From the sequence record NC_016158.1: a stretch of DNA of 49,576 nucleotides. One strand, written 5' to 3'. The stretch is from Escherichia phage HK639. The position numbers and the translations under genes are program-made. Every line of letters begins with the position of its first letter. Positions within the stretch are counted from its first letter, which is position 1. This document shows positions 19,172 to 46,503 of the stretch, piece by piece. The notes beneath the pieces are model-generated. The model saw only the letters and a list, made by a program, of their open reading frames with translations, did no database searches and was not told the DNA's origin.

Positions 19172-22100
19172 ATGGAAGCGATCACTGGTGCAAAGGGTGG
19201 CAGCCAGAAGCAGCACACACCTGTAGAACAGCCCGATTCGGCGCAGTCAATGGCGCGCTGCCGCATGCTGCTGGCGCTCGGGGAGGGGGAGTTTGCTGGT
19301 GGCCTGGATGCGACCCGGATATTCCTGGACGGTACGCCGTTGGGAAACCCCGACGGAACGATGAATTTTGAAAATGTGTCATGGGATTTCCGGCCTGGCA
19401 CACAGACCCAGACACCAATACCGGGATTCCCTGCAGTCGAGAATGAAACTACGGTTGGCGTATCGCTGACAAAGGCCACACCATGGACGCGCGCGCTGAG
19501 TAATACCCAGATTGACGCGGTTCTCGTTCGTATTGGTATACCTGGATTGCAGCAGCAGGAAAACGACGGAGACATTGTCGGAACTACTGTCACATATCAC
19601 ATCGACATTGCGGTTGATGGCGGGGCATACCAGACAATGCTAACCAAAACGGTTACTGAAAAACTCAGTTCGCTGTATGAGCTGACCCATCGCATTAATC
19701 TTCCGAAAGCCAGTACGGGCTGGCAGATTCGCGTGGTACGCGACACTGACGACAGCACCAGCCAGATGTTGCAGAATAAAACGCAGGTACAGGCAATCAC
19801 TGAGGTGATTGATGCGCGCCTGCGCTATCCCCATACGGCGCTGCTGTATGTGTCGTTCAACGCCAAATCGTTCAACAATATCCCGAAGATTTCCTGTAAA
19901 CCGAAGGGGCGTATTATCCGCATCCCTTCGAATTACGATCCGATAGCCCGAACCTATAGCGGCACATGGGACGGGACATTTAAGTGGGGCTGGACGAATA
20001 ACCCAGCGTGGATCTGGTTCGATGTGCTCACTGAGCCGCGTTTCGGACTTGGCCGCCGTGTGACGCCAGAAATGCTCGATAAATGGGAGCTTTATCGCAT
20101 AGCGCAGCGCTGTGATCAGCTTGTACCAGATGGAAAAGGCGGTAGCGGTACAGAGCCGCGCTTCATGTTTGACGTGTACATTCAGGCGCAGGCCGACGCC
20201 TGGCAGGTGATCAAGGATATCGCCGCAGGCTTTAACGGCATGACGTTCTGGGGCAACAACATGTTCAATGTTGTCTCTGACATGCCGGCGGACACGTCGA
20301 AGCTGCAAATCCTTACCCGCGCTTCGGTGGTGGGCAAGCCGGTTTACTCGAGCGGCAGTGAAAAGACCCGCTTCTCCAGCGCGCTGATTAACTTCAGCGA
20401 CCCTGACAATCACTATCAGGACCGCACGACAGCGGTGATGTTCCCGGATCTGGTTAAGCAGTTCAAGTTTAAGCAGACGCAGATCACCGCAATCGGCTGT
20501 ACGCGCGAGAGCGAAGCGCAGCGCCGTGGCGGGTGGGCGGTGTATTCCAACTCACTCGACAGGATGATTACGCTACAGACCGGGCTTGATGGCTATGTCT
20601 ACGTGCCGGGTACCGTATTTGCATTTGCCGACGAACGCCTTTCAGGGCGTGTTTATGGTGGGCGCATCACCGAGTACAATTCCGGGATTAAGGCAGTGAC
20701 CACTGACCGCGGTACCAGCGCGGTGGCTGGCGATACACTGATGATTCGCACGCAGGGCGGTGCCGTTGAAAGCAGAGTGATTCAGGCCGTAAACGGCACG
20801 CAGCTGGTGGTTGCCACGCCTTTCACGGCAGAGCCGTTACCAAACGCTGTATTCGTCATCGATGCCGGGCAGTTGCGCCTGCAATACTTCCGCGTTACGA
20901 ACCTGAGATTTGATGATGAAGAAAACACCTTCACAATCACCGGGGCTGAGTATAACGCATCAAAATATGATGCGGTCGATAACAATGCCCGCCTGGATGC
21001 GCCGCCAGTCAGCCTGTTACCGACTGGTGTTGTAAGCCAGCCTGCCAACATCGCGGTAGCGAGCTATGACGCAGTACGCCAGGGGCAGCGAGTGGCCACC
21101 TTGACTGCATCATGGGATGCGCCGGTCGACAAGAACGGCAAACCACAGGCAGATGTCATAGCCTATCGCGTGCAGTGGAAGCGCGGCGACAATGAGTGGG
21201 TTAACGTGCCGGATACAGGGCTGCGCAATATCGAAGTTCCTGGCATCTTCGATGGTGATTATCTGGTACGTGTACGCGCCATCAACTCAGGAGGTGCGTC
21301 TAGCCTCTGGACAACGTCTGCTCTTACACACCTAAAGGGGCGCGCTGGTGACGTTCCAAAACCTGTAGGGCTAACAGCATCTGAAGATGTCGTTTTTGGG
21401 ATCAATATCACTTGGGGATTCCCTGCTGATACCTCAGACACATTAAGCACAGAGCTGCAATACAGCGTTACGGCTGACGGTTCAAATCCTATTTTGTTGG
21501 CGTCTGTACCTTATCCTCTAAAACTTTATCAGCAGATGGGCCTTAAGGCCGGTCAGGAATTCTGGTACCGCGCACAGCTGGTTGACCGAACCGGTAACGA
21601 ATCAGGATACACAGAATGGGTTCGTGGGCAGGCAAGTATAGATGTTTCTGATGTCTCCAGTGTGATTTTGGAGGACATGAAGGAATCTCAGACGTTCAAA
21701 GACCTGATCGAGAGCGCAGTGGACAGCAATGCAAAAATTGCTGGCATGGCTGATGATATCCTGCAGGCGAACAATCAGCTCGAACAGCAGGCGCTGGATA
21801 TTCAGGAAAATTCTGATGCTCTGGCGCAAGCTGCGGTGAAGATCGACGAAATGTCTGTCTCCATGGACGGCATGACGGGAGGCGTGAAGAACTCGGCCAT
21901 AGCTATCATCCAGGGCAACCTCGCACAGGTGGCAGCGCGTAAAACACTGACTGCGTCGGTCGCCGGTAACAGCGCGCAGCTTGACCGAATTGATGAAGTG
22001 ATCGTTAACGAGAAGGAGGCAACGGCGCGCGCTCTGCTGAGCCTGCAGACGGACGTTAACGGCAACAAGGCATCCATCAACAGCCTCAATCAGACGTTCT

Positions 22101-22636
22101 CGGATTACCAGCAGGCTATGGCCACGCAGGTAAACAGCATCACGGCGACCGTCAATGGCCACACTTCTGCGATCACCACCAACGCGCAGGCCATTGCCAA
22201 CGTCAACGGCGACCTGAAGGCGATGTACAACATCAAGGTTGGTGTCTCCAGCAACGGGCAGTATTACGCCGCGGGGATGGGGATCGGCGTGGAGAATACG
22301 CCATCCGGCATGCAGTCGCAGGTTATCTTCCTGGCTGATCGCTTCGCAGTCACCACGGCGGCCGGAAACAGCGTGGCTTTGCCATTCGTGATCCAGAACG
22401 GGCAGACATTCATCCGGGCCAGCTTCATTCAGGACGGCACCATTGACAACGCCAAAATCGGCAACTATATCCAGTCGAATAATTATGTGGCTGGATCTGC
22501 AGGCTGGAAGCTTGATAAGGGAGGGACGTTCGAAATTAACGGTGTGGCCGGGGGCGGGAGGATGCTGATATCCAGCACTCTCATTCGCATCTACGACAGC
22601 AACAACGTGCTGCGCGTCAGAATGGGGTTATGGTAA
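19172..22636 (+). CDS. J: tail tip / host specificity protein J
   Basis: 1154 aa; position after I; lambda J-like length and architecture with fibronectin-like repeats and C-terminal receptor-binding region. Confidence 0.85.
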   Translation: MEAITGAKGGSQKQHTPVEQPDSAQSMARCRMLLALGEGEFAGGLDATRIFLDGTPLGNPDGTMNFENVSWDFRPGTQTQTPIPGFPAVENETTVGVSLTKATPWTRALSNTQIDAVLVRIGIPGLQQQENDGDIVGTTVTYHIDIAVDGGAYQTMLTKTVTEKLSSLYELTHRINLPKASTGWQIRVVRDTDDSTSQMLQNKTQVQAITEVIDARLRYPHTALLYVSFNAKSFNNIPKISCKPKGRIIRIPSNYDPIARTYSGTWDGTFKWGWTNNPAWIWFDVLTEPRFGLGRRVTPEMLDKWELYRIAQRCDQLVPDGKGGSGTEPRFMFDVYIQAQADAWQVIKDIAAGFNGMTFWGNNMFNVVSDMPADTSKLQILTRASVVGKPVYSSGSEKTRFSSALINFSDPDNHYQDRTTAVMFPDLVKQFKFKQTQITAIGCTRESEAQRRGGWAVYSNSLDRMITLQTGLDGYVYVPGTVFAFADERLSGRVYGGRITEYNSGIKAVTTDRGTSAVAGDTLMIRTQGGAVESRVIQAVNGTQLVVATPFTAEPLPNAVFVIDAGQLRLQYFRVTNLRFDDEENTFTITGAEYNASKYDAVDNNARLDAPPVSLLPTGVVSQPANIAVASYDAVRQGQRVATLTASWDAPVDKNGKPQADVIAYRVQWKRGDNEWVNVPDTGLRNIEVPGIFDGDYLVRVRAINSGGASSLWTTSALTHLKGRAGDVPKPVGLTASEDVVFGINITWGFPADTSDTLSTELQYSVTADGSNPILLASVPYPLKLYQQMGLKAGQEFWYRAQLVDRTGNESGYTEWVRGQASIDVSDVSSVILEDMKESQTFKDLIESAVDSNAKIAGMADDILQANNQLEQQALDIQENSDALAQAAVKIDEMSVSMDGMTGGVKNSAIAIIQGNLAQVAARKTLTASVAGNSAQLDRIDEVIVNEKEATARALLSLQTDVNGNKASINSLNQTFSDYQQAMATQVNSITATVNGHTSAITTNAQAIANVNGDLKAMYNIKVGVSSNGQYYAAGMGIGVENTPSGMQSQVIFLADRFAVTTAAGNSVALPFVIQNGQTFIRASFIQDGTIDNAKIGNYIQSNNYVAGSAGWKLDKGGTFEINGVAGGGRMLISSTLIRIYDSNNVLRVRMGLW

Positions 22637-22932
22637 TGCCACAGGGTTTGCAGTGCTGGGACAGTGCAGGGCGGGTTGCAGTGGATTTAAGCGATTACGC
22701 GATCCGTTACATGGGCAGCGCAACGGTTTCGCTTGCTTCAGGAGAGACGTCAAAAAATGTCGCTTTTTCTGGCGCAACACAGGACGGGACGTTTGTCACA
22801 ATCGTTTCAACTGGAGTGACTGTAAACGAGTATTTTTGCCGCGCTTATAACGGCGGCTTTACTCTCTACTATCTCCCCACGGGTGGAAGTGCAGCAATCA
22901 CTCTCAATGTTGAGGTTTATAACTTTCAATGA
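22636..22932 (+). CDS. hypothetical tail-region protein with SAG motif
   Basis: ORF 22630..22932; ATG 22636 overlaps J stop (TAATG); motif QCWDSAGRVAVDL shared with next gene. Confidence 0.45.
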   Translation: MPQGLQCWDSAGRVAVDLSDYAIRYMGSATVSLASGETSKNVAFSGATQDGTFVTIVSTGVTVNEYFCRAYNGGFTLYYLPTGGSAAITLNVEVYNFQ

Positions 22933-23570
22933 GCGGATTCGAAGTTTACAACAGCGCCGGGAAACTGCTGGTGGACTCGCAAAACAGGTCGACCATGTTT
23001 TACGATCAGCGCGCGCTGGGGGCCGTAACCGACAAAGGCTTTTACCGTGTTGATAGCCCGTTTGGTGATGGCAGCACACTCGGCGGCACTCCTCAGGCAT
23101 TCTGGAATGACGGGCGCTTAAGGTGGCTGCAGCTGGGTACGAACAAATACGGTTTTCCTGGTGCTGATATGCTTGAAGATAATGCTGGAAGCATGATCCG
23201 AACAGCGCGAAATATTGGCATCCAGAGCGGCTATCTCGATGTGTTTGATAGCGCCGGCAGCCTTATCTGGAGTGCAGCATCAGCCTCTAAGATGCCGAGA
23301 GTTGTTGGGTTCTTTGACGTACCAGCGAACTATGACCTGCAGAACAATACCTTTTCAGTCAGTTTAAGCTTCAACCCCTGGATTTTGATAAACAACTGCC
23401 CGGGGAATCTCAGCGATGATGGCACGGTTGTCGGGTATTCAGGAGTGGTGCTCAAATGGACTGGCTCACAGCTGCAGGGCAGATATATATCAAAAAATCA
23501 GCGCAACTGGAGCCAGACGTTTCAGGGACGGGGCTTAAGAATCCCCATCGCTCAGTTTGTTGGAATTTGA
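22929..23570 (+). CDS. hypothetical tail-region protein with repeated SAG motif
   Basis: 213 aa; EVYNSAGKLLVDS and VFDSAGSLIWSA repeats. Confidence 0.5.
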   Translation: MSGFEVYNSAGKLLVDSQNRSTMFYDQRALGAVTDKGFYRVDSPFGDGSTLGGTPQAFWNDGRLRWLQLGTNKYGFPGADMLEDNAGSMIRTARNIGIQSGYLDVFDSAGSLIWSAASASKMPRVVGFFDVPANYDLQNNTFSVSLSFNPWILINNCPGNLSDDGTVVGYSGVVLKWTGSQLQGRYISKNQRNWSQTFQGRGLRIPIAQFVGI

Positions 23571-23897
23571 CACGGGAGGAACGCGTGGATAATGAGTCGC
23601 GATCATATCTTGTTTCACGCCCTTTGCTGAATTAAAGCGATAAACCACATCCAGCTTTTCCGTTTTTTTATAGCAAATATTACTTAACCGTTTATTAATA
23701 TGGCGGCTGAATATTCCGTTGCTACTGTCTGAAATAATATCCACCTCTCTGGTGGCGCAGTCGATATTTACATGAATATCACCACCCAGCGATAAACGAG
23801 CTGCATCAACCGGGTAATCCATCTGGAATGCGTTATCTGTGTGTGTGTTCGTACATCCAGCCACCAGCAAAAGCGCTGCAGCAAATAAAAGTTTCAT
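23535..23897 (-). CDS. lipoprotein (moron), candidate superinfection-exclusion protein
   Basis: 120 aa; MKLLFAAALLLVAGC lipobox signal; opposite strand to all flanking tail genes; AT-richer; RBS AGGAATG. Confidence 0.55.
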   Translation of the reverse strand: MKLLFAAALLLVAGCTNTHTDNAFQMDYPVDAARLSLGGDIHVNIDCATREVDIISDSSNGIFSRHINKRLSNICYKKTEKLDVVYRFNSAKGVKQDMIATHYPRVPPVSNSNKLSDGDS

Positions 23898-24023
23898 TTC
23901 AACATTCCTGTTTATGCGGGAACTTCCATTTTATTTGAGTTTAAAAAATAGTCAGATTGATATGAGCGATCAATTTTACACGATTGATCGCTTTTAACGA
24001 TCGTTATTATCGTGAGGTAGTTC

Positions 24024-25277
24024 ATGCTTTATAACACCGGCACCATCGCAATTAACGGAAATACCGCAACCGGCACCGGCACAAACTGGACAGCTCCCGC
24101 CAGCCAGGTTCGCTCTGGCCAGACAATTATCGTCATGTCTAACCCGGTGCAGCTGTTCCAGATTTCATCCGTGAACAGCGCCACGTCAATGACGGTTACG
24201 CCTGCCGCTTCCCCGGCGCTGAGCGGCCAGAAGTATGGAATTCTTGTGTCGGACATTATCTCAGTCGACGGCCTGGCACAGGCCATGTCGCAGCTCATCA
24301 AAGAGTACGACGAGAACATTGGCGCGTGGGAGACGTTCGCTACTACCTCAGCAAACCAGACCATCACCGTAACCATCAACGGCACCCCTGTAACGATCCC
24401 CGGCATCGGCAAACTAGCTCTGAAAGGGAGTAACGGTGCGCTGGCTGTTGCTGACGGCGGAACCGGAGCAACTAAGGCAGAAGACGCTCGCACAAACCTC
24501 GGTTTGGGAAGTAGCGCCACGAGGAACGCATACAGCTCCACCGGGGATATGCTTTCAGTAGGTGATTTTGGATTAGGATCGACAAGTGCTCCCGGACTTA
24601 ATGATGCTAATTTGGGACGTCAGACAGCTTTCTCTGCGGCTGGCGGTGCTGGTGCAGTTAACTTTTTCGATGCGTATTCTCCGTTGCTATCAATGGTAAG
24701 AACCACTTCAACAGCGGTACAGATGCAGATAACAGCAGCTGGTAAATCTGCAGTTAGAGGGTGTAATGCGGGGAACTGGACACCGTGGTACGAACTTTAT
24801 TCAACTCAAAATACAACGAAATCCAGCGATGGAACCCTTAAGGCTGCGTCTCCGGTTGCCCGTATCGTAGCGAGCCAGGAAGCCTGCCAGCGCGCCGATA
24901 TAGCGGAGGATGGCTTCTCCTGGTGCGGCTGTGGGACGGCGAACACTGAGGCGGAGGGAATAACCATTTCTCGCCTCGAGGTGGGCGTTTACGTGCTGGC
25001 AGGTTCGGCAGGCTTGGCGTCCGAGGGATGGCAGCTACTGCCACCAATGGACCCCGGCGGCATGGGAGAGCTGGGAGTGGTTGAGGCAGAGCAAACCGAT
25101 AGCGGCGAGCTGACAATCCGTCTTTTCAAGCGAAAATATATCCTGAGCGATGAAGGTGAGGTCATCAAAACCAAAGGTGAACCGATTGACGTCCCGGCGA
25201 ACAGCTGGATCGATGTTCGTCTGGATATGCCAGCGGATAGCATCTGGAACACCAAAGTTTCCGGTTCTTCTCTCTAA
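24024..25277 (+). CDS. side tail fibre protein
   Basis: 417 aa; conserved phage tail-fibre N-terminal region followed by Gly/Ala/Thr/Ser-rich repeats; RBS GAGGT. Confidence 0.7.
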   Translation: MLYNTGTIAINGNTATGTGTNWTAPASQVRSGQTIIVMSNPVQLFQISSVNSATSMTVTPAASPALSGQKYGILVSDIISVDGLAQAMSQLIKEYDENIGAWETFATTSANQTITVTINGTPVTIPGIGKLALKGSNGALAVADGGTGATKAEDARTNLGLGSSATRNAYSSTGDMLSVGDFGLGSTSAPGLNDANLGRQTAFSAAGGAGAVNFFDAYSPLLSMVRTTSTAVQMQITAAGKSAVRGCNAGNWTPWYELYSTQNTTKSSDGTLKAASPVARIVASQEACQRADIAEDGFSWCGCGTANTEAEGITISRLEVGVYVLAGSAGLASEGWQLLPPMDPGGMGELGVVEAEQTDSGELTIRLFKRKYILSDEGEVIKTKGEPIDVPANSWIDVRLDMPADSIWNTKVSGSSL

Positions 25278-25391
25278 CTCCAGTGACAACCTGCCGAAAT
25301 TCAGCCTTAAAAATTAATAGGCGAACCCAAATAGATCTACACCTCCTTTAATAGTACTGTATGTATAAACAGTGCTAAAGAGGTGCAGAAC

Positions 25392-25781
25392 ATGGGATTC
25401 CCATCTCCAGCAGCAGACTATGTTGAAGATCGCATATCGCTCGACAAACGGCTTATCGCGCATCCGGCAGCCACGTACATGATGATAGCGGGCTCTACAT
25501 ACCTGCGAGCTGGCATAATGAAGGGCGCAATGCTTATCGTCGACTCGTCGCTGACACCAAAAGACGGTTCTCTTCTGGTGTGCGCTATAGACGGTGAGTT
25601 CAGGATTATGCGTTACAGGACGCATCCGCAGCCTTGTCTGGAAAACCCTGAAAATGGAAGGAGGGAGTCGTTACCGTTGAAAGACGATGTGTCGGATACA
25701 TCGCGGCCGGTGTTTGGGGTGATCACCTACAGCATCAACGATGCGCGTTCTGGTGAGTTCGACGACTGCCCGGTGATGTAA
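25392..25781 (+). CDS. UmuD'-like protein (S24 LexA/UmuD fold, begins at position equivalent to UmuD cleavage site)
   Basis: [29 protein letters not shown] resembles E. coli UmuD residues from Gly25 ([28 protein letters not shown]); C-terminal VFGVITY resembles VFGVVIHV; GDSM and VKKL catalytic motifs not conserved (GSTY, IMRY). Confidence 0.65.
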   Translation: [129 protein letters not shown]

Positions 25782-26021: not shown

Positions 26022-27185
26022 TTACGCCAGTTTCAAGCCAGCCTGATTTTCTCCTTGTGTCGTATTTGTGTCATGGTTGCCAAAAATGGCATCAATTTTC
26101 CGTGCGTGTTCGCTTAAGTGGTTCGGTGCCAGGTGAGCGTATCGACGTACCATTTCGATGGACTCCCAGCCGCCCATTTCTTGCAGAACTGACAACGGAA
26201 CGCCGGACTGAATTAACCAGCTCGCCCAGGTATGCCGGAGGTCATGAAAACGGAAGTCTTCTATACCCGCTCTTTCCAGTCCAATGCGCCAGGCGACATT
26301 GTCATCCACTCGCATTTTGCGGACAGCCGGAGTGACGGTTTTATCCGGGCGCGTTGATGGCTTCGTGTGAACGAATACCCACCTGGAACTTTTCCCGATC
26401 TGATCCCTTAACACCCTGCATGCGGTATCATTCAGAGCCACGCCGATAGCCTTGCCCGCCTTCGCGTTCTCCGGATTTACCCATGCAACCTTTCTCTGCA
26501 TATCGACCTGCTGCCACTCCAGATCAATGATGTTGGAGCGGCGCAGGCCGGTTGCCAGTGCAAATATCACCACCGGCTTTATCGACTCCGGCATGCAGGA
26601 GATAAGCCGTTCTGCCTCGTCCCTGGTCAGCCATCGGATGCGTTTGCTGATCGGCTTTTTCGTTTTTATAACCGGGGCCGTTTTAATCCAGCCCCAGTCA
26701 TTAGCCGCAGCCTTGAACAGAGATCGCATGAAAGAAAGGTGCTGACTCTTTGTGGCCTGGCTTACCGGTTTCTCAACATACGGAGGCGGTTCCTTCCCCC
26801 GGCGTATAGCCGCGTCCCTGCGCGACTCCCAGACCTGAATATGCTTACGGTTGACCATCTTCGAAACAGCCTCATGAACCTGATCAGCTGTGATGGTTGA
26901 AATATCCCGGCCGGAGAAATGCCGCAGGAAATATTCGATTTTGGTCTTATCGTCATCGAGTGACCGCTTATGCTCCTTCTCACGGAGCCACCTGATGCAA
27001 CATTCCTCAAACGTCCTCGTCGGTAGTTCCCCAATTTTATCCACCCGCCACGCTTCAGCCTTCAGCTTGTCGTGCAGCTCCTGCGCTTGTTTCTTGTCCC
27101 CCGTACCAAGAGATCGTCTAATTCTTTTCCCTGACGGCGTAACGAAATGACAGTGCCAGACGCCGCCTCTGAGGGTGATTGACAT
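26022..27185 (-). CDS. int: tyrosine integrase
   Basis: 387 aa; C-terminal catalytic signature [39 protein letters not shown] (R..H..R..Y). Confidence 0.9.
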
Positions 27186-36291: not shown

Positions 36292-36981
36292 TCAAAGCTT
36301 GTTGTAAGCAATGGACTCATGGATCAGCGCCTTACCCATGATGTACAGCTGGTCCTGATTTTCTTCTGTCACATACCAGTCTTTGTACGCCGGGTTATCG
36401 GAAAGTACAGCCAACTGCAGACCCTGCATTTGCAGGCGCTTAACGTGGAAGTGCTGCCCGAAGACAAACGCATACACCCCGTCAACTTTGAAGTTCCTCA
36501 CTGAAACGTCAAAGAAGAGGCGATCGCCAGACTGTATTGTCGGGCACATGCTGTCGCCGTCTACGGTCATCACCTTCACATCATTTTGAGTGCGGTTCCC
36601 GAAAAGAGATCTGGCATGCTCAGTTGTGAACTCAATAGCATGCAGGACCTCAACAAATTCAGAAATCATAAAAGACCCCGGACCAGCGCTTACTTTCAGG
36701 TCTAAAACATCAACCCGAAAGACATCAATTGTTTCCGAGACCGGTTGGGCCGCCGATGGCACATTACCATCAATCCGCATTTCCCCCACTCCAGAACTAA
36801 GCCATTCCGGCCTTACACCCAGAGCATGAGCTAGCTCGACCATCTTACGGCTGCCGCTCGTTTTACCTGATGTCATCTTTTGAATTGCAGGCTGGGATAT
36901 ACCGACTTTATCAGCCAACTGTCCTTGAGATATGTCAGCGGCCGACATAGCCGCGTTCAGTCGTTCTGCAAATGTTTTCAT
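36292..36981 (-). CDS. cI: CI-type prophage repressor (HTH plus S24 peptidase domain)
   Basis: N-terminal HTH QGQLADKVGISQPAIQKMTSGK; C-terminal S24 domain with GDSM motif (VDGDSMCPTI) and conserved Lys region; divergent from cro. Confidence 0.85.
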   Translation of the reverse strand: MKTFAERLNAAMSAADISQGQLADKVGISQPAIQKMTSGKTSGSRKMVELAHALGVRPEWLSSGVGEMRIDGNVPSAAQPVSETIDVFRVDVLDLKVSAGPGSFMISEFVEVLHAIEFTTEHARSLFGNRTQNDVKVMTVDGDSMCPTIQSGDRLFFDVSVRNFKVDGVYAFVFGQHFHVKRLQMQGLQLAVLSDNPAYKDWYVTEENQDQLYIMGKALIHESIAYNKL

Positions 36982-45216: not shown

Positions 45217-45606
45217 ATGTCCGATCCATTAACCGGCACTGGTGCAGTTCTCGGGGGCGGCCTGTTGGGCTCAGTCCTGTACGGTGTCTTTACTCATACA
45301 GATTTCGGCGTGGTGTTTGGAGCGTTTGGTGGTGCGGTGTTTTACGTCGCGACAGCTGCAAACCTTACGCGTGCTCGCCTGGCTGCATATTTTCTGACTT
45401 CATTCATTGTTGGAGTGCTAGGCGCCGGGTTTGTTGGCTCATGGCTAAATGCTGCCTCGAGTTATGAAAAACCACTGGATGCACTCGGAGCAGTGATTCT
45501 GTCTGCGCTGTGTATAAAAATCCTAACTTTTCTTAATAACCAGGATTTGAACAGCCTGTTCGGCTTTTTCTCACGGTTACGCGGAGGAGGGGGGAATGGT
45601 AATTGA
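45217..45606 (+). CDS. holin (multi-TM membrane protein)
   Basis: 129 aa with several Gly-rich hydrophobic helices; first gene of lysis cassette. Confidence 0.6.
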   Translation: MSDPLTGTGAVLGGGLLGSVLYGVFTHTDFGVVFGAFGGAVFYVATAANLTRARLAAYFLTSFIVGVLGAGFVGSWLNAASSYEKPLDALGAVILSALCIKILTFLNNQDLNSLFGFFSRLRGGGGNGN

Positions 45607-45874
45607 CCCGTCAGCTGTCTTTAATGCGTTTATCTGCTCGGTGATCGTCGTCGTTCTGATGTTCTACCAGCGCCATGGTGCCCGGCACCGTCCTTTCATC
45701 TCAATCCTGGCGTATATAACCATCCTGGTTTACGCCGTAATCCCGTGGCAATTCATCTTCGGCCTCTATCGTGACTCCAGTTGGCTGGTGGTGGTGGCAA
45801 ACCTCCTGATATGCGCAGCTGTTATGAAGGTCCGGGGAAATCTGGCGCGTCTGGTTGATCTTCTGAGGCACTAA
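45596..45874 (+). CDS. holin/antiholin-like membrane protein
   Basis: 92 aa, three hydrophobic segments; between holin and endolysin. Confidence 0.5.
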   Translation: MVIDPSAVFNAFICSVIVVVLMFYQRHGARHRPFISILAYITILVYAVIPWQFIFGLYRDSSWLVVVANLLICAAVMKVRGNLARLVDLLRH

Positions 45875-46503
45875 TGAACCAAATACTATTTCAAAAGGCG
45901 GCAGGTATAAGCGCCGGTCTAGCCGTGCGCTGGTTTCACTATATCGATGCTGCAATGAAGGAATTCGGCATAACCGCGCCGCTCGATCAGGCCATGTTTA
46001 TCGCGCAGATGGGCCACGAGTCCGGCGGCTTCACCCGGCTGGTGGAAAACCTGAACTATTCGGCAGAAAACCTGGTATCTACGTTTGGCAAGCATCGCAT
46101 TACTGCACAGCAGGCCGCCGCACTCGGCAGAACGGCAACGCAACCGGCAAATCAAAAAGCGATAGCCAATCTGGTTTATGGCGGTGAGTGGGGCAAAAAG
46201 AACCTGGGCAACCAGGTTGCTGGTGATGGCTGGAAATATCGCGGTCGCGGCCTGAAGCAAATCACCGGGCTCAGCAATTACCGCAACTGTGGCCACGCGC
46301 TGAAGTTGGACCTTGTAACCCAGCCTGAATTGCTGGAACAGGATGAATATGCTGCGCGCTCCGCTGCATGGTTCTATGTCTCGCACGGATGCCTGCTCCA
46401 TTCCGGCGACGTGGAGCGCGTGACGCTGCTTATCAACGGCGGCCGTAACGGGCTGGAACAACGGCGCACCCTGTTTAACCTGGCGAAATCTGTGCTGGTG
46501 TGA
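45874..46503 (+). CDS. endolysin, glycoside hydrolase family 19 (chitinase-like)
   Basis: FIAQMGHESGGF and YRGRGLKQITG motifs typical of GH19 phage endolysins. Confidence 0.75.
   Translation: MNQILFQKAAGISAGLAVRWFHYIDAAMKEFGITAPLDQAMFIAQMGHESGGFTRLVENLNYSAENLVSTFGKHRITAQQAAALGRTATQPANQKAIANLVYGGEWGKKNLGNQVAGDGWKYRGRGLKQITGLSNYRNCGHALKLDLVTQPELLEQDEYAARSAAWFYVSHGCLLHSGDVERVTLLINGGRNGLEQRRTLFNLAKSVLV

What the first reader, a model, noticed from the sequence alone, without database searches (positions are those of the whole stretch)
23535..24023. Reverse-strand lipoprotein gene wedged between tail genes and the side tail fibre
This is the only minus-strand gene in a 25-kb plus-strand structural block. 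It is AT-rich and encodes a 120-aa lipoprotein (LVAGC). Its 3' end overlaps the upstream plus-strand gene by about 36 nt. Placement and orientation match Cor/Llp-type receptor-masking exclusion proteins found beside tail-fibre genes in lambdoid and T5-like phages.
Basis: partly seen in the sequence, partly recalled or inferred. Interest (0 to 1): 0.55.

Follow-up and report, generated by a model that had tools for sequence, protein, structure and literature searches.

The report
TonB-mimic exclusion lipoprotein beside tail genes
A temperate phage carries, beside its receptor-binding genes, a small backwards-facing gene for a membrane-anchored copy of the host TonB docking domain. It probably shuts the phage's own receptor (the PQQ importer PqqU/YncD) from inside the cell so that related phages cannot infect; it is a new lipid-anchored member of a protein family so far predicted only by computation.

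Summary
Window 23535-23897 (-) is a real 120-aa gene under purifying selection, with a canonical lipobox (LVAGC), low GC, a 36-nt convergent overlap with the upstream gene and its own conserved promoter.

The protein has no similarity to Cor or Llp. It is a homologue (32-42% identity) of SIP-1 (QXV80559) of phage IsaakIselin. SIP-1 is the third gene of the receptor-binding cassette of T1-like phages that use PqqU (YncD). The two upstream genes are homologues of that cassette's RBP-2 and RBP-1 (35% and 49% identity).

Two points appear undescribed. Every intact prophage-type homologue carries a lipobox cysteine and faces backwards, whereas all virulent-phage homologues have an ordinary signal peptide and face the same way as the RBP genes.

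The likely mechanism is an outer-membrane-anchored TonB mimic that docks on the periplasmic face of PqqU and blocks adsorption. Neither this protein nor SIP-1 has been tested experimentally. Verdict: new member of a known kind, moderate interest.

The parts
23535..23897 (-). Gene for a 120-aa lipoprotein with a TonB-C-terminal-domain-like fold (stop codon included). It is a homologue of IsaakIselin SIP-1 (QXV80559).
23853..23897 (-). Codons 1-15: lipoprotein signal peptide ending in the lipobox L-V-A-G-C. The +2 residue is Thr, not Asp, which predicts sorting to the outer membrane.
   Evidence: The lipobox rule is satisfied. A lipobox cysteine is present in all but one (P0029, Cys to Tyr) of the N-terminally complete, non-frameshifted prophage-type homologues, the +2 residue is never Asp, and the spacing from Cys to the YP motif is 13 residues in most.
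23928..23955 (-). Sigma-70-like promoter of the lipoprotein gene: -35 CTGACT, 16-nt spacer, -10 TAAAAT.
   Evidence: Found by the consensus scan. The -10 hexamer is invariant in 7 aligned loci, including the distant Franconibacter locus, and the -35 is kept in 6 of 7. Function is not shown.
23906..23909 (-). Shine-Dalgarno-like AGGA, 8 nt upstream of the ATG.
   Evidence: Read directly from the sequence. It is conserved in the alignment.
23535..23570 (.). 36-nt convergent overlap between the 3' ends of the lipoprotein gene and the RBP-1-like gene.
   Evidence: The same 36-nt overlap occurs in the E. coli and Enterobacter prophages and in phages LMessi, CharmingMan and LLS. It is absent where the lipoprotein is shorter, as in Franconibacter, P0053 and P0058.
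22929..23570 (+). 213-aa homologue of RBP-1 (QXV80560), the PqqU/YncD-associated receptor-binding protein (Pfam DUF8377 in precomputed annotation).
   Evidence: 49% identity to Bas10 RBP-1 and 48% to the IME347 protein, both over the full length. It matches PHROG 4524 at E = 2e-82. DUF8377 is listed for its orthologues.
22630..22932 (+). 100-aa homologue of RBP-2 (QXV80561), the second subunit of the predicted receptor-binding dimer.
   Evidence: 35% identity to Bas10 RBP-2 and 36% to the IME347 protein. It matches PHROG 7961 at E = 1e-34.
19172..22636 (+). Central tail fibre / tip protein J. Its last ~34 codons (from about 22534) belong to the exchangeable cassette.
   Evidence: 37% identity to the Bas11 J-like protein. 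Nucleotide homology to HK633 stops at 22533. The C-terminal ending ...LRVRMGLW is shared with the YncD-type phages and differs from the Cor/FhuA type.
23965..23992 (.). Perfect 9-bp inverted repeat (AGCGATCAA / TTGATCGCT, 10-nt spacer). The repeat and its upstream flank hold three GATC sites. It lies between the lipoprotein promoter and the stf start. Role unknown; it may be a terminator or insulator like the one annotated at the same place in HK633.
   Evidence: Read from the sequence. The region is conserved in the E. coli and Enterobacter loci. A terminator-like hairpin was found on the + strand at 23985-24003, and HK633 has an annotated terminator before stf.
24024..25277 (+). Side tail fibre (stf) gene, the downstream boundary of the cassette.
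   Evidence: Matches PHROG 1591 at E = 1e-142 and Pfam Phage_tail_C_2. Homology to HK633 stf resumes exactly at its ATG, 24024.

Best explanation
The gene encodes a secreted, lipid-anchored protein whose folded core (about residues 28-105) is a diverged copy of the TonB C-terminal domain. It is the third component of a horizontally exchangeable host-recognition cassette. The other components are the J tip, RBP-2 and RBP-1, which together target the TonB-dependent transporter PqqU (YncD).

**Proposed mechanism**
1. The gene is transcribed from its own promoter, on the strand opposite to the late tail operon, so it can be expressed in the lysogen (inferred).
2. The product is exported by Sec, acylated at Cys15 and sorted by Lol to the inner leaflet of the outer membrane. 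The signal is shown by sequence; the localisation follows from the +2 rule.
3. Held on a ~12-residue tether, the TonB-like domain docks on the periplasmic face of PqqU, as TonB does. This is inferred from homology to SIP-1, for which AlphaFold2-multimer predicted such a complex (PMC12124388).
4. Docking holds PqqU in a state that the phage's RBP-1/RBP-2 dimer cannot bind or use. The lysogen, and debris from lysed cells, then no longer adsorb this phage or other PqqU-dependent phages. This is inferred by analogy with Llp-FhuA and Rtp45-LptD.

IsaakIselin still infects a tonB mutant (PMC12124388). Exclusion would therefore work through the receptor's conformation, not simply by competing with TonB.
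For: **Homology and cassette**
- All three genes are homologous to the Drexlerviridae cassette: lipoprotein 32-42%, RBP-1 48-49%, RBP-2 35-36% identity.
- The tblastn hit in IsaakIselin is bas10_0024 = QXV80559 = SIP-1.

**Receptor**
- IsaakIselin (Bas10) and IME347 depend on YncD/PqqU experimentally (PMC8594841; PMC12172434).
- This RBP family is specifically linked to YncD (bioRxiv 10.64898/2026.04.02.716166).

**TonB-like fold**
- NCBIfam TonB at E = 0.029.
- In the family profile search of PDB, the six best of 12 hits, and eight in all, are TonB; the best is 7zc8_B at E = 0.02.
- hhalign aligns residues 24-73 with TonB 159-212, including the YP...A...G motif.
- The AF2 core has pLDDT 84-93 with beta-beta-alpha-beta topology.

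**Periplasmic life**
- Lipobox, or a signal-peptidase-I type signal, in the intact compact (~100-130 aa) homologues; the long-ORF forms carry an internal signal-like segment.
- Two invariant cysteines, C47 and C75.

**Position**
- Same slot as Cor in HK633/mEpX2, with homology breakpoints at 22533 and 24024.
- The J C-terminus co-varies with the cassette type.

**Independent expression**
- Inverted orientation and a conserved promoter in 13 temperate-phage or prophage loci in addition to the window's own.

**Precedent**
- The third gene of the LptD-type cassette (Rtp45) is an exclusion lipoprotein shown by cryo-EM to bind the periplasmic side of its receptor (bioRxiv 10.1101/2025.07.07.663478).
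Against: - No member of this family, SIP-1 included, has been tested for exclusion, adsorption block or PqqU binding. The only support for binding is a published AlphaFold2 model of SIP-1.
- The receptor of this phage and of its lambdoid relatives (LMessi, CharmingMan, Eeyore, Flotzy, LLS) has not been determined. No receptor data were found for them.
- My own fusion model gave a strand at Ton-box residues 8-10 but with pLDDT below 40, so it is inconclusive. It joined the PqqU N-terminal 27 residues, including the segment I take to be the Ton box, to the mature lipoprotein through a (G4S)6 linker.
- The promoter is a consensus match only. No terminator was found downstream.
Confidence: 0.6

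Rival explanations
1. It is a Cor- or Llp-family lipoprotein that masks FhuA.
For: It is a small lipoprotein in the Cor slot between the J-linked small genes and stf. Its orientation is opposite to the receptor-binding genes, as I recall for T5 llp relative to the pb5 gene (own knowledge, not checked here).
Confidence: 0.03
2. It is a general Ton-box decoy. The TonB-like domain binds the Ton boxes of many TonB-dependent transporters. This would give the lysogen broad protection against TonB-dependent phages and colicins, or alter nutrient uptake, rather than excluding PqqU phages specifically.
For: The fold and the YP motif are those of the domain that recognises the Ton boxes of many transporters. 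An outer-membrane anchor would place it near all such transporters.
Against: The gene always travels with one particular RBP type, which argues for a receptor-specific partner. General TonB antagonism would starve the host of iron and B12, a heavy cost for a prophage gene. The published model places SIP-1 on PqqU (PMC12124388).
Confidence: 0.12
3. It is an accessory factor of infection or lysis rather than an exclusion factor. For example, it might modulate PqqU during DNA entry of the phage's own progeny, or act as an outer-membrane spanin-like component.
For: In virulent Drexlerviridae it is co-oriented with the two RBP genes, and probably co-transcribed with them. It is an outer-membrane lipoprotein with a proline-containing C-terminal tail.
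Against: An exported protein cannot join virions, which assemble in the cytoplasm. A protein made after infection cannot help the entry that preceded it. The phage has a separate lysis cassette at 45.2-46.5 kb, and this gene is not nested in an Rz-like gene. In temperate phages it is uncoupled from the late operon by inversion and has its own promoter.
Confidence: 0.08
4. It is a lysogenic-conversion moron that acts on host physiology, for example by throttling PQQ import or changing envelope properties. Any phage exclusion would be absent or incidental.
For: It has low GC, its own promoter and the opposite strand, which are typical moron features. PqqU's physiological role is PQQ uptake (PMC12124388).
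Against: Strict linkage to the matching RBP genes holds across virulent and temperate phages and across genera. Virulent phages gain nothing from long-term changes to host physiology.
Confidence: 0.07

Closest known systems
SIP-1 (QXV80559, bas10_0024) of Escherichia phage IsaakIselin, and its Drexlerviridae homologues (IME347, Bas11, NBD2, PHB17, Klebsiella weberviruses)
   Same: They are homologous: 32-42% identity, with the invariant Y-P-x-x-A-x-R-x-S-x-x-G motif and two invariant cysteines. Both have a TonB-C-terminal-domain-like fold and are exported. [quoted passage not shown] Both are proposed to block PqqU from the periplasm (PMC12124388).
   Different: SIP-1 and all other Drexlerviridae homologues examined have an ordinary signal-peptidase-I signal (...NAMA/LN) and so should be soluble in the periplasm. 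They are transcribed in the same direction as the RBP genes and convergent to J. The window protein has a lipobox and a 12-residue tether, carries a 15-residue C-terminal extension, is inverted relative to the RBP genes, has its own promoter, and sits in a temperate lambdoid genome.
Cor of T1 / phi80 / HK022 / HK633 / mEpX2
   Same: It is a small outer-membrane lipoprotein encoded after two small J-linked genes (100 aa and ~212 aa) and before stf. It occupies the identical genomic slot. Cor is an exclusion factor acting on a TonB-dependent transporter, FhuA (PMC13164509).
   Different: There is no sequence similarity. Cor is 77 aa against 120 aa here. Cor is on the same strand as J, whereas this gene is inverted. 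The partner RBPs and the inferred receptor differ.
Llp of phage T5 (PDB 8A60 with FhuA)
   Same: Llp is a periplasm-facing lipoprotein that binds the periplasmic side of a TonB-dependent transporter and blocks RBP binding by reverse allostery (PMC9586334, as cited). This is the best mechanistic analogue.
   Different: The sequence and fold are unrelated. Llp does not appear in any PDB search list here. The receptor is FhuA, not PqqU.
Rtp45, the exclusion lipoprotein of LptD-targeting small siphophages
   Same: It is the third gene of a gpJ-proximal RBP cassette and a lipoprotein. Cryo-EM shows it bound at the periplasmic side of its receptor (bioRxiv 10.1101/2025.07.07.663478).
   Different: It is an unrelated ~6-kDa protein. 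Its receptor, LptD, is not TonB-dependent, and it works by sterically displacing a loop.
TonB C-terminal domain (E. coli TonB 150-239; FusB; HasB)
   Same: The fold and the YP motif are shared, and TonB C-terminal domains are the top structural and profile matches.
   Different: This protein lacks the N-terminal inner-membrane anchor and the proline-rich spacer, and it cannot couple to ExbBD. It falls below every curated TonB threshold. It has two conserved cysteines that are absent from the aligned E. coli TonB segment.

Membership tests
SIP-1 / PHROG 25729 (putative PqqU-directed exclusion proteins) | Sequence homology to QXV80559 and its relatives | tested here: met
   PHROG 25729 at E = 1e-67 over the full length. 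BLASTP gives 32.5% identity (E = 3e-13) to SIP-1, 38% (E = 2e-18) to IME347 and 42% (E = 2e-21) to KL3.
SIP-1 / PHROG 25729 (putative PqqU-directed exclusion proteins) | N-terminal export signal | tested here: met
   A lipoprotein signal with Cys15 passes the PROSITE-type rule. SIP-1 itself has a signal-peptidase-I type signal (PMC12124388).
SIP-1 / PHROG 25729 (putative PqqU-directed exclusion proteins) | TonB-C-terminal-domain-like fold | tested here: met
SIP-1 / PHROG 25729 (putative PqqU-directed exclusion proteins) | Encoded next to RBP-1 and RBP-2 homologues, just downstream of gpJ | tested here: met
   with conserved synteny.
SIP-1 / PHROG 25729 (putative PqqU-directed exclusion proteins) | Binds the periplasmic face of PqqU and excludes PqqU-dependent phages | tested here: inconclusive
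   No multimer prediction tool or coordinates were available. The single-chain Ton-box/linker/lipoprotein model gave a strand at Ton-box residues 8-10 at pLDDT below 40. No experiment exists for any family member.
Cor (T1/phi80/HK022-type exclusion lipoprotein) | Sequence similarity to Cor | tested here: not met
   BLASTP against HK633 and mEpX2 Cor gives no alignment at E <= 10. No Cor PHROG appears at E <= 1.
Cor (T1/phi80/HK022-type exclusion lipoprotein) | Small lipoprotein encoded between the J-linked RBP genes and stf | tested here: met
   Same slot as Cor in HK633 and mEpX2, with a lipobox.
Cor (T1/phi80/HK022-type exclusion lipoprotein) | Acts on FhuA | not testable with these tools
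   The linked RBP genes are of the YncD type, not the FhuA type, which argues against this.
Llp (T5) | Sequence or structural similarity to Llp (PDB 8A60) | tested here: not met
TonB proper (Pfam TonB_C / NCBIfam TonB) | Score above the curated family threshold | tested here: not met
   No Pfam TonB_C hit at E <= 1. NCBIfam NF008082 scores 14.2 bits against a cut-off of 265.
TonB proper (Pfam TonB_C / NCBIfam TonB) | N-terminal inner-membrane anchor plus a proline-rich periplasmic spacer | tested here: not met
   The protein is 120 aa and has a lipoprotein signal directly followed by a 12-residue tether and the domain.
Outer-membrane spanin (Rz1-type lipoprotein) | Located in the lysis cassette, usually nested in or next to an Rz gene | tested here: not met
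   Holin and endolysin lie at 45217-46503. This gene lies between RBP-1 and stf.

The most novel reading that the evidence does not exclude
The lipid-anchored TonB mimic might not be specific to PqqU. It could occupy the Ton boxes of several TonB-dependent transporters from its position in the outer membrane. A single small prophage gene would then give cross-resistance to many TonB-dependent phages and colicins, with a trade-off in iron, B12 and PQQ uptake. The change from a soluble to a lipid-anchored form would be the adaptation that makes low-level prophage expression sufficient.
Probability: 0.1. Interest if true: 0.7.

Novelty: new member of a known kind. Interest (0 to 1): 0.4.

Why it matters
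**If the mechanism holds.** This would be a case of a phage copying the docking domain of the host's own energy transducer, TonB, to switch off a TonB-dependent receptor from inside the cell. That solution to superinfection exclusion differs structurally from Cor, Llp and Rtp45.

**Why the temperate version is useful.** A lysogen, or a plasmid clone of one 363-bp gene, can be challenged directly with the available PqqU-dependent phages Bas10, Bas11 and IME347. This is the simplest experiment that could turn a purely computational proposal into a demonstrated function.

**Receptor prediction.** The result extends the "RBP cassette predicts the receptor" rule from virulent T1-like phages to lambdoid prophages of E. 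coli, Enterobacter, Kosakonia, Klebsiella and Franconibacter. It predicts PqqU as the receptor of this phage and of LMessi, CharmingMan, Eeyore, Flotzy and LLS.

**A lifestyle-linked pattern.** The strict split between lipobox plus inverted orientation in temperate phages and plain signal peptide plus co-orientation in virulent phages is a clean example of how one module is rewired for lysogenic expression.

**Practical relevance.** It is modest. Such prophage genes could make strains refractory to therapeutic phages that target PqqU.

Tried and rejected
**Family searches that found nothing useful**
- Cor and Llp membership was rejected on direct BLASTP and on the PHROG, Pfam, NCBIfam and PDB searches.
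- PADLOC defence models gave no hit for the lipoprotein or either RBP.
- Rfam gave nothing at E <= 1 in 23000-24500, so there is no known RNA element in the spacer.

**Interpretations rejected**
- A spanin role was rejected because the phage has a separate lysis cassette far away.
- The long minus-strand ORFs in the structural block were checked as possible further reverse genes. None has a PHROG hit, so they are shadow ORFs.

**Searches with limited return**
- The exhaustive profile search of 1.84 billion representatives found only 20 family members and no TonB at E <= 0.001. The TonB link therefore rests on the PDB profile search, hhalign and structure.
- Literature searches for receptor or exclusion data on LMessi, CharmingMan, Flotzy, Eeyore and LLS, and for a prophage lipoprotein form of SIP-1, found nothing relevant.

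**Modelling**
- The single-chain fusion of the PqqU N-terminal 27 residues (including the putative Ton box), a (G4S)6 linker and the mature lipoprotein was inconclusive, with pLDDT below 40 on the peptide.
- A full PqqU-lipoprotein fusion model was considered and not run. The tool returns no coordinates or PAE, so an interface could not have been judged.
Full report

Yes. Window 23535..23897 on the minus strand is a 120-aa ORF, MKLLFAAALLLVAGC-TNTH.... The N-terminus satisfies the PROSITE-type lipoprotein rule: Lys2, an uncharged hydrophobic core, L-V-A-G-C with Cys15, and Thr at +2.

GC is 0.427 in the ORF and 0.333 in the 126-nt upstream spacer. It is 0.51-0.55 in the neighbouring genes and 0.525 for the window.

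From 51 to 25277 the long ORFs that match head and tail PHROGs are all on the + strand. The four longest minus-strand ORFs in that block overlap them and match nothing. The gene is therefore the only credible reverse gene in the structural block.

It is a real gene, for three reasons:
- It matches PHROG 25729 end to end, at E = 1e-67.
- It has 52 homologues in the 5.8-billion-protein collection.
- It evolves under purifying selection, with dN/dS 0.04-0.27 against five orthologues and about 0.05 in the folded core against L011, the only comparison in which dS was not saturated.

An AGGA ribosome-binding site lies 8 nt upstream of the ATG. A sigma-70-like promoter (CTGACT-16-TAAAAT, 23955..23928) has a -10 hexamer that is invariant in seven aligned loci, including a distant Franconibacter one.

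**2. What is the genomic setting?**

The window is a complete-looking temperate lambdoid genome. It has terminase, head and tail genes on the + strand, an integrase (26022-27185), a CI-like repressor (36292-36981), a Q-like antiterminator, a holin and an endolysin.

The local gene order is:
1. J (19172-22636)
2. a 100-aa gene (22630-22932)
3. a 213-aa gene (22929-23570)
4. the reverse lipoprotein gene
5. stf (24024-25277)

Only the 21.5-25.2 kb region has close nucleotide relatives among deposited phages. Against HK633, homology runs to 22533, about 34 codons before the end of J, and resumes exactly at the stf ATG, 24024.

In HK633 and mEpX2 the segment in between holds a 100-aa gene, a 212-aa gene, then cor and a terminator. 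The window therefore carries an alternative allele of the same exchangeable cassette, and the lipoprotein occupies the Cor position. The last residues of J co-vary with the cassette...LRVRMGLW here and in the YncD-type phages, against ...LRVQVGRLTGVF in the Cor-type phages.

**3. What is the protein?**

It is not Cor or Llp.
- BLASTP against HK633 and mEpX2 Cor finds nothing at E <= 10.
- The Pfam, PHROG and NCBIfam scans at E <= 1 return no exclusion family.
- PADLOC has nothing.
- Llp appears in none of the three PDB searches.

tblastn against phage genomes finds two groups of relatives:
- five lambdoid coliphages (LMessi 98%; CharmingMan, Eeyore, LLS and Flotzy 80-94%)
- about 37 Drexlerviridae at 31-47% identity, including IsaakIselin/Bas10, JohannLBurckhardt/Bas11, IME347, NBD2, PHB17, Henu7 and Klebsiella weberviruses

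In the Drexlerviridae the homologue is the last of three genes (about 100, 217 and 110 aa) next to the J-like gene. The window's 100-aa and 213-aa proteins are homologous to the other two: 35-36% and 48-49% identity, over the full length.

The IsaakIselin hit is bas10_0024 = QXV80559. PMC12124388 names this protein SIP-1, with QXV80560 as RBP-1 and QXV80561 as RBP-2. Bas10 and IME347 depend experimentally on YncD, now called PqqU (PMC8594841; PMC12172434). A 2026 preprint reports that this RBP family is specifically linked to YncD.

**4. What is the fold?**

An alignment of 21 family members has these invariant positions: P29, A32, R34, S36, G39, C47, C75 and R105. Y28 is nearly invariant. The segment D-Y-P-V-D-A-A-R-L-S-L-G-G reads like the TonB "YP" motif.

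Independent lines agree on a TonB C-terminal domain:

| Test | Result |
|---|---|
| NCBIfam scan | TonB at E = 0.029 |
| Family profile against PDB | Six best of 12 hits, and eight in all, are TonB; best 7zc8_B, E = 0.02 |
| hhalign against E. coli TonB | Residues 24-73 align with TonB 159-212, pairwise E = 0.002 |
| AlphaFold2 model | beta-beta-alpha-beta core, residues 40-90 at pLDDT 84-93; tether and C-terminal tail disordered |
| Foldseek against PDB | Top 8 all TonB C-terminal domains |

Each score is marginal alone, but the agreement is not. This reproduces for the window protein what PMC12124388 reported for SIP-1.

It is not a true TonB. It has no inner-membrane anchor and no proline-rich spacer, and it is far below the curated thresholds. 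The family is small and phage-restricted, with 20 representatives at 50% identity among 1.84 billion proteins.

**5. What appears new here?**

The family splits cleanly by phage lifestyle.

*Prophage and temperate-phage members* (Enterobacter, E. coli, Kosakonia, Klebsiella, Franconibacter):
- They carry a lipobox cysteine; the only exceptions are fragments, frameshifted copies and one variant (P0029) in which the cysteine is replaced by tyrosine.
- The +2 residue is T, A, S, N, G, V or L and never Asp, which predicts outer-membrane sorting.
- In most, the distance from the cysteine to the YP motif is 13 residues.
- In all 13 temperate-phage or prophage loci examined besides the window, the gene is inverted relative to J and the RBP genes, with stf downstream wherever the locus extends that far.

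*Drexlerviridae members:*
- All have an ordinary signal-peptidase-I type signal (...NAMA/LN).
- All are co-oriented with the RBP genes.

I found no description of the lipoprotein clade in the searchable literature. That library is incomplete.

**6. What is the most likely mechanism?**

*Shown by sequence or computation:*
- an exported, lipid-modifiable protein with a TonB-like core
- part of a cassette linked to PqqU
- a conserved promoter of its own, on the strand opposite to the late operon

*Inferred:*
- expression in the lysogen
- anchoring in the inner leaflet of the outer membrane
- docking on the periplasmic face of PqqU in the manner of TonB
- stabilisation of a receptor state that RBP-1/RBP-2 cannot bind

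PMC12124388 shows that PQQ-induced closure of loops 7 and 8 blocks the phage. It also implies that the phage infects a tonB mutant. Exclusion is therefore more likely to act through receptor conformation, as Llp does on FhuA, than by competing with TonB.

The Rtp45-LptD cryo-EM structure shows that the third gene of a sister cassette works from the periplasmic side. My attempt to test Ton-box binding with a single-chain fusion was inconclusive. I put about 0.9 on the homology and fold assignment and about 0.6 on the full exclusion mechanism.

**7. Rival explanations**

- Cor/Llp membership is rejected.
- A general Ton-box decoy cannot be excluded (about 0.1). It would be the most interesting outcome.
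- A role in infection or lysis, or a purely physiological moron function, is less likely. The protein is exported, it is strictly linked to one RBP type in both virulent and temperate phages, and a separate lysis cassette exists.

**8. Verdict**

The gene is a new, lipid-anchored, lysogeny-adapted member of the SIP-1 family of TonB-mimicking putative exclusion proteins. No member of that family has been tested experimentally.

Interest is moderate (0.4). The core idea is already published for SIP-1. The temperate lipoprotein form adds a clear evolutionary pattern and an easy experimental route.

Noticed in passing
L008:1982-3136 (Escherichia phage KW1E_UTAR); L027:5001-5673; proteins P0059-P0063: A third group of phages carries two tandem paralogues of the TonB-like gene. 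One is annotated with a long N-terminal extension (196-271 aa), which may be an over-called ORF or a membrane-anchored form. The other has a lipobox. They lie among early genes (DNA polymerase A, SNF2 helicase, Dam) and not beside J.
   Followed up: partly
window 23965-23992: A perfect 9-bp inverted repeat (AGCGATCAA / TTGATCGCT); with its upstream flank it holds three GATC sites within about 30 bp. It lies 10 bp upstream of the lipoprotein promoter's -35 hexamer and about 30 bp upstream of the stf start. It is conserved in E. coli and Enterobacter loci. HK633 has an annotated rho-independent terminator at the equivalent position. It could be an insulating terminator or a Dam-sensitive regulatory site.
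   Followed up: partly
window 22534-22636 (end of J): The last ~34 codons of J belong to the swapped cassette. The J C-terminus ends ...LRVRMGLW in the window, in the related prophages and in YncD-type Drexlerviridae. It ends ...LRVQVGRLTGVF in Cor/FhuA-type HK633 and mEpX2. This suggests the J tip is the docking site for the cassette's RBPs.
   Followed up: yes
window 25383-25781: A UmuD-like (Peptidase_S24) gene stands alone between stf and the integrase. Related prophages carry a full umuD-umuC (IMS) pair at this place (L011, L017, L018, L025).
   Followed up: no
L014:6001-7262 compared with window 22630-23897: Among prophages the lipoprotein diverges faster than its partner RBPs: 67% identity against 85% and 91% for the E. 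coli locus L014. It is still under purifying selection. The 15-residue C-terminal tail that overlaps the RBP-1 gene has dN/dS of about 1.3 in that comparison.
   Followed up: partly
L025:5001-6672: In this metagenomic contig the J gene is reduced to a 137-aa tip fragment that abuts head genes. The RBP-2, RBP-1 and lipoprotein genes are nevertheless intact. It may be a decaying prophage that keeps the exclusion gene.
   Followed up: no
L017 and L018 (Franconibacter pulveris CP188026): One genome carries two different prophages that encode the identical 111-aa lipoprotein next to RBP-1/RBP-2 homologues. Here the lipoprotein gene does not overlap RBP-1.
   Followed up: no
window 22929-23570 and its orthologues: Precomputed annotation assigns Pfam PF28254 (DUF8377) to the RBP-1 homologues. 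The local Pfam-A copy returned no family for the window protein, so the model is probably newer than that copy.
   Followed up: no
E. coli complete genomes (H66-H68): The cassette is rare in E. coli. Only 3 of 5426 complete genomes carry it, and all three are porcine isolates (strain 210205630, UMNK88, ETEC1749). Close homologues are common in Enterobacter.
   Followed up: no
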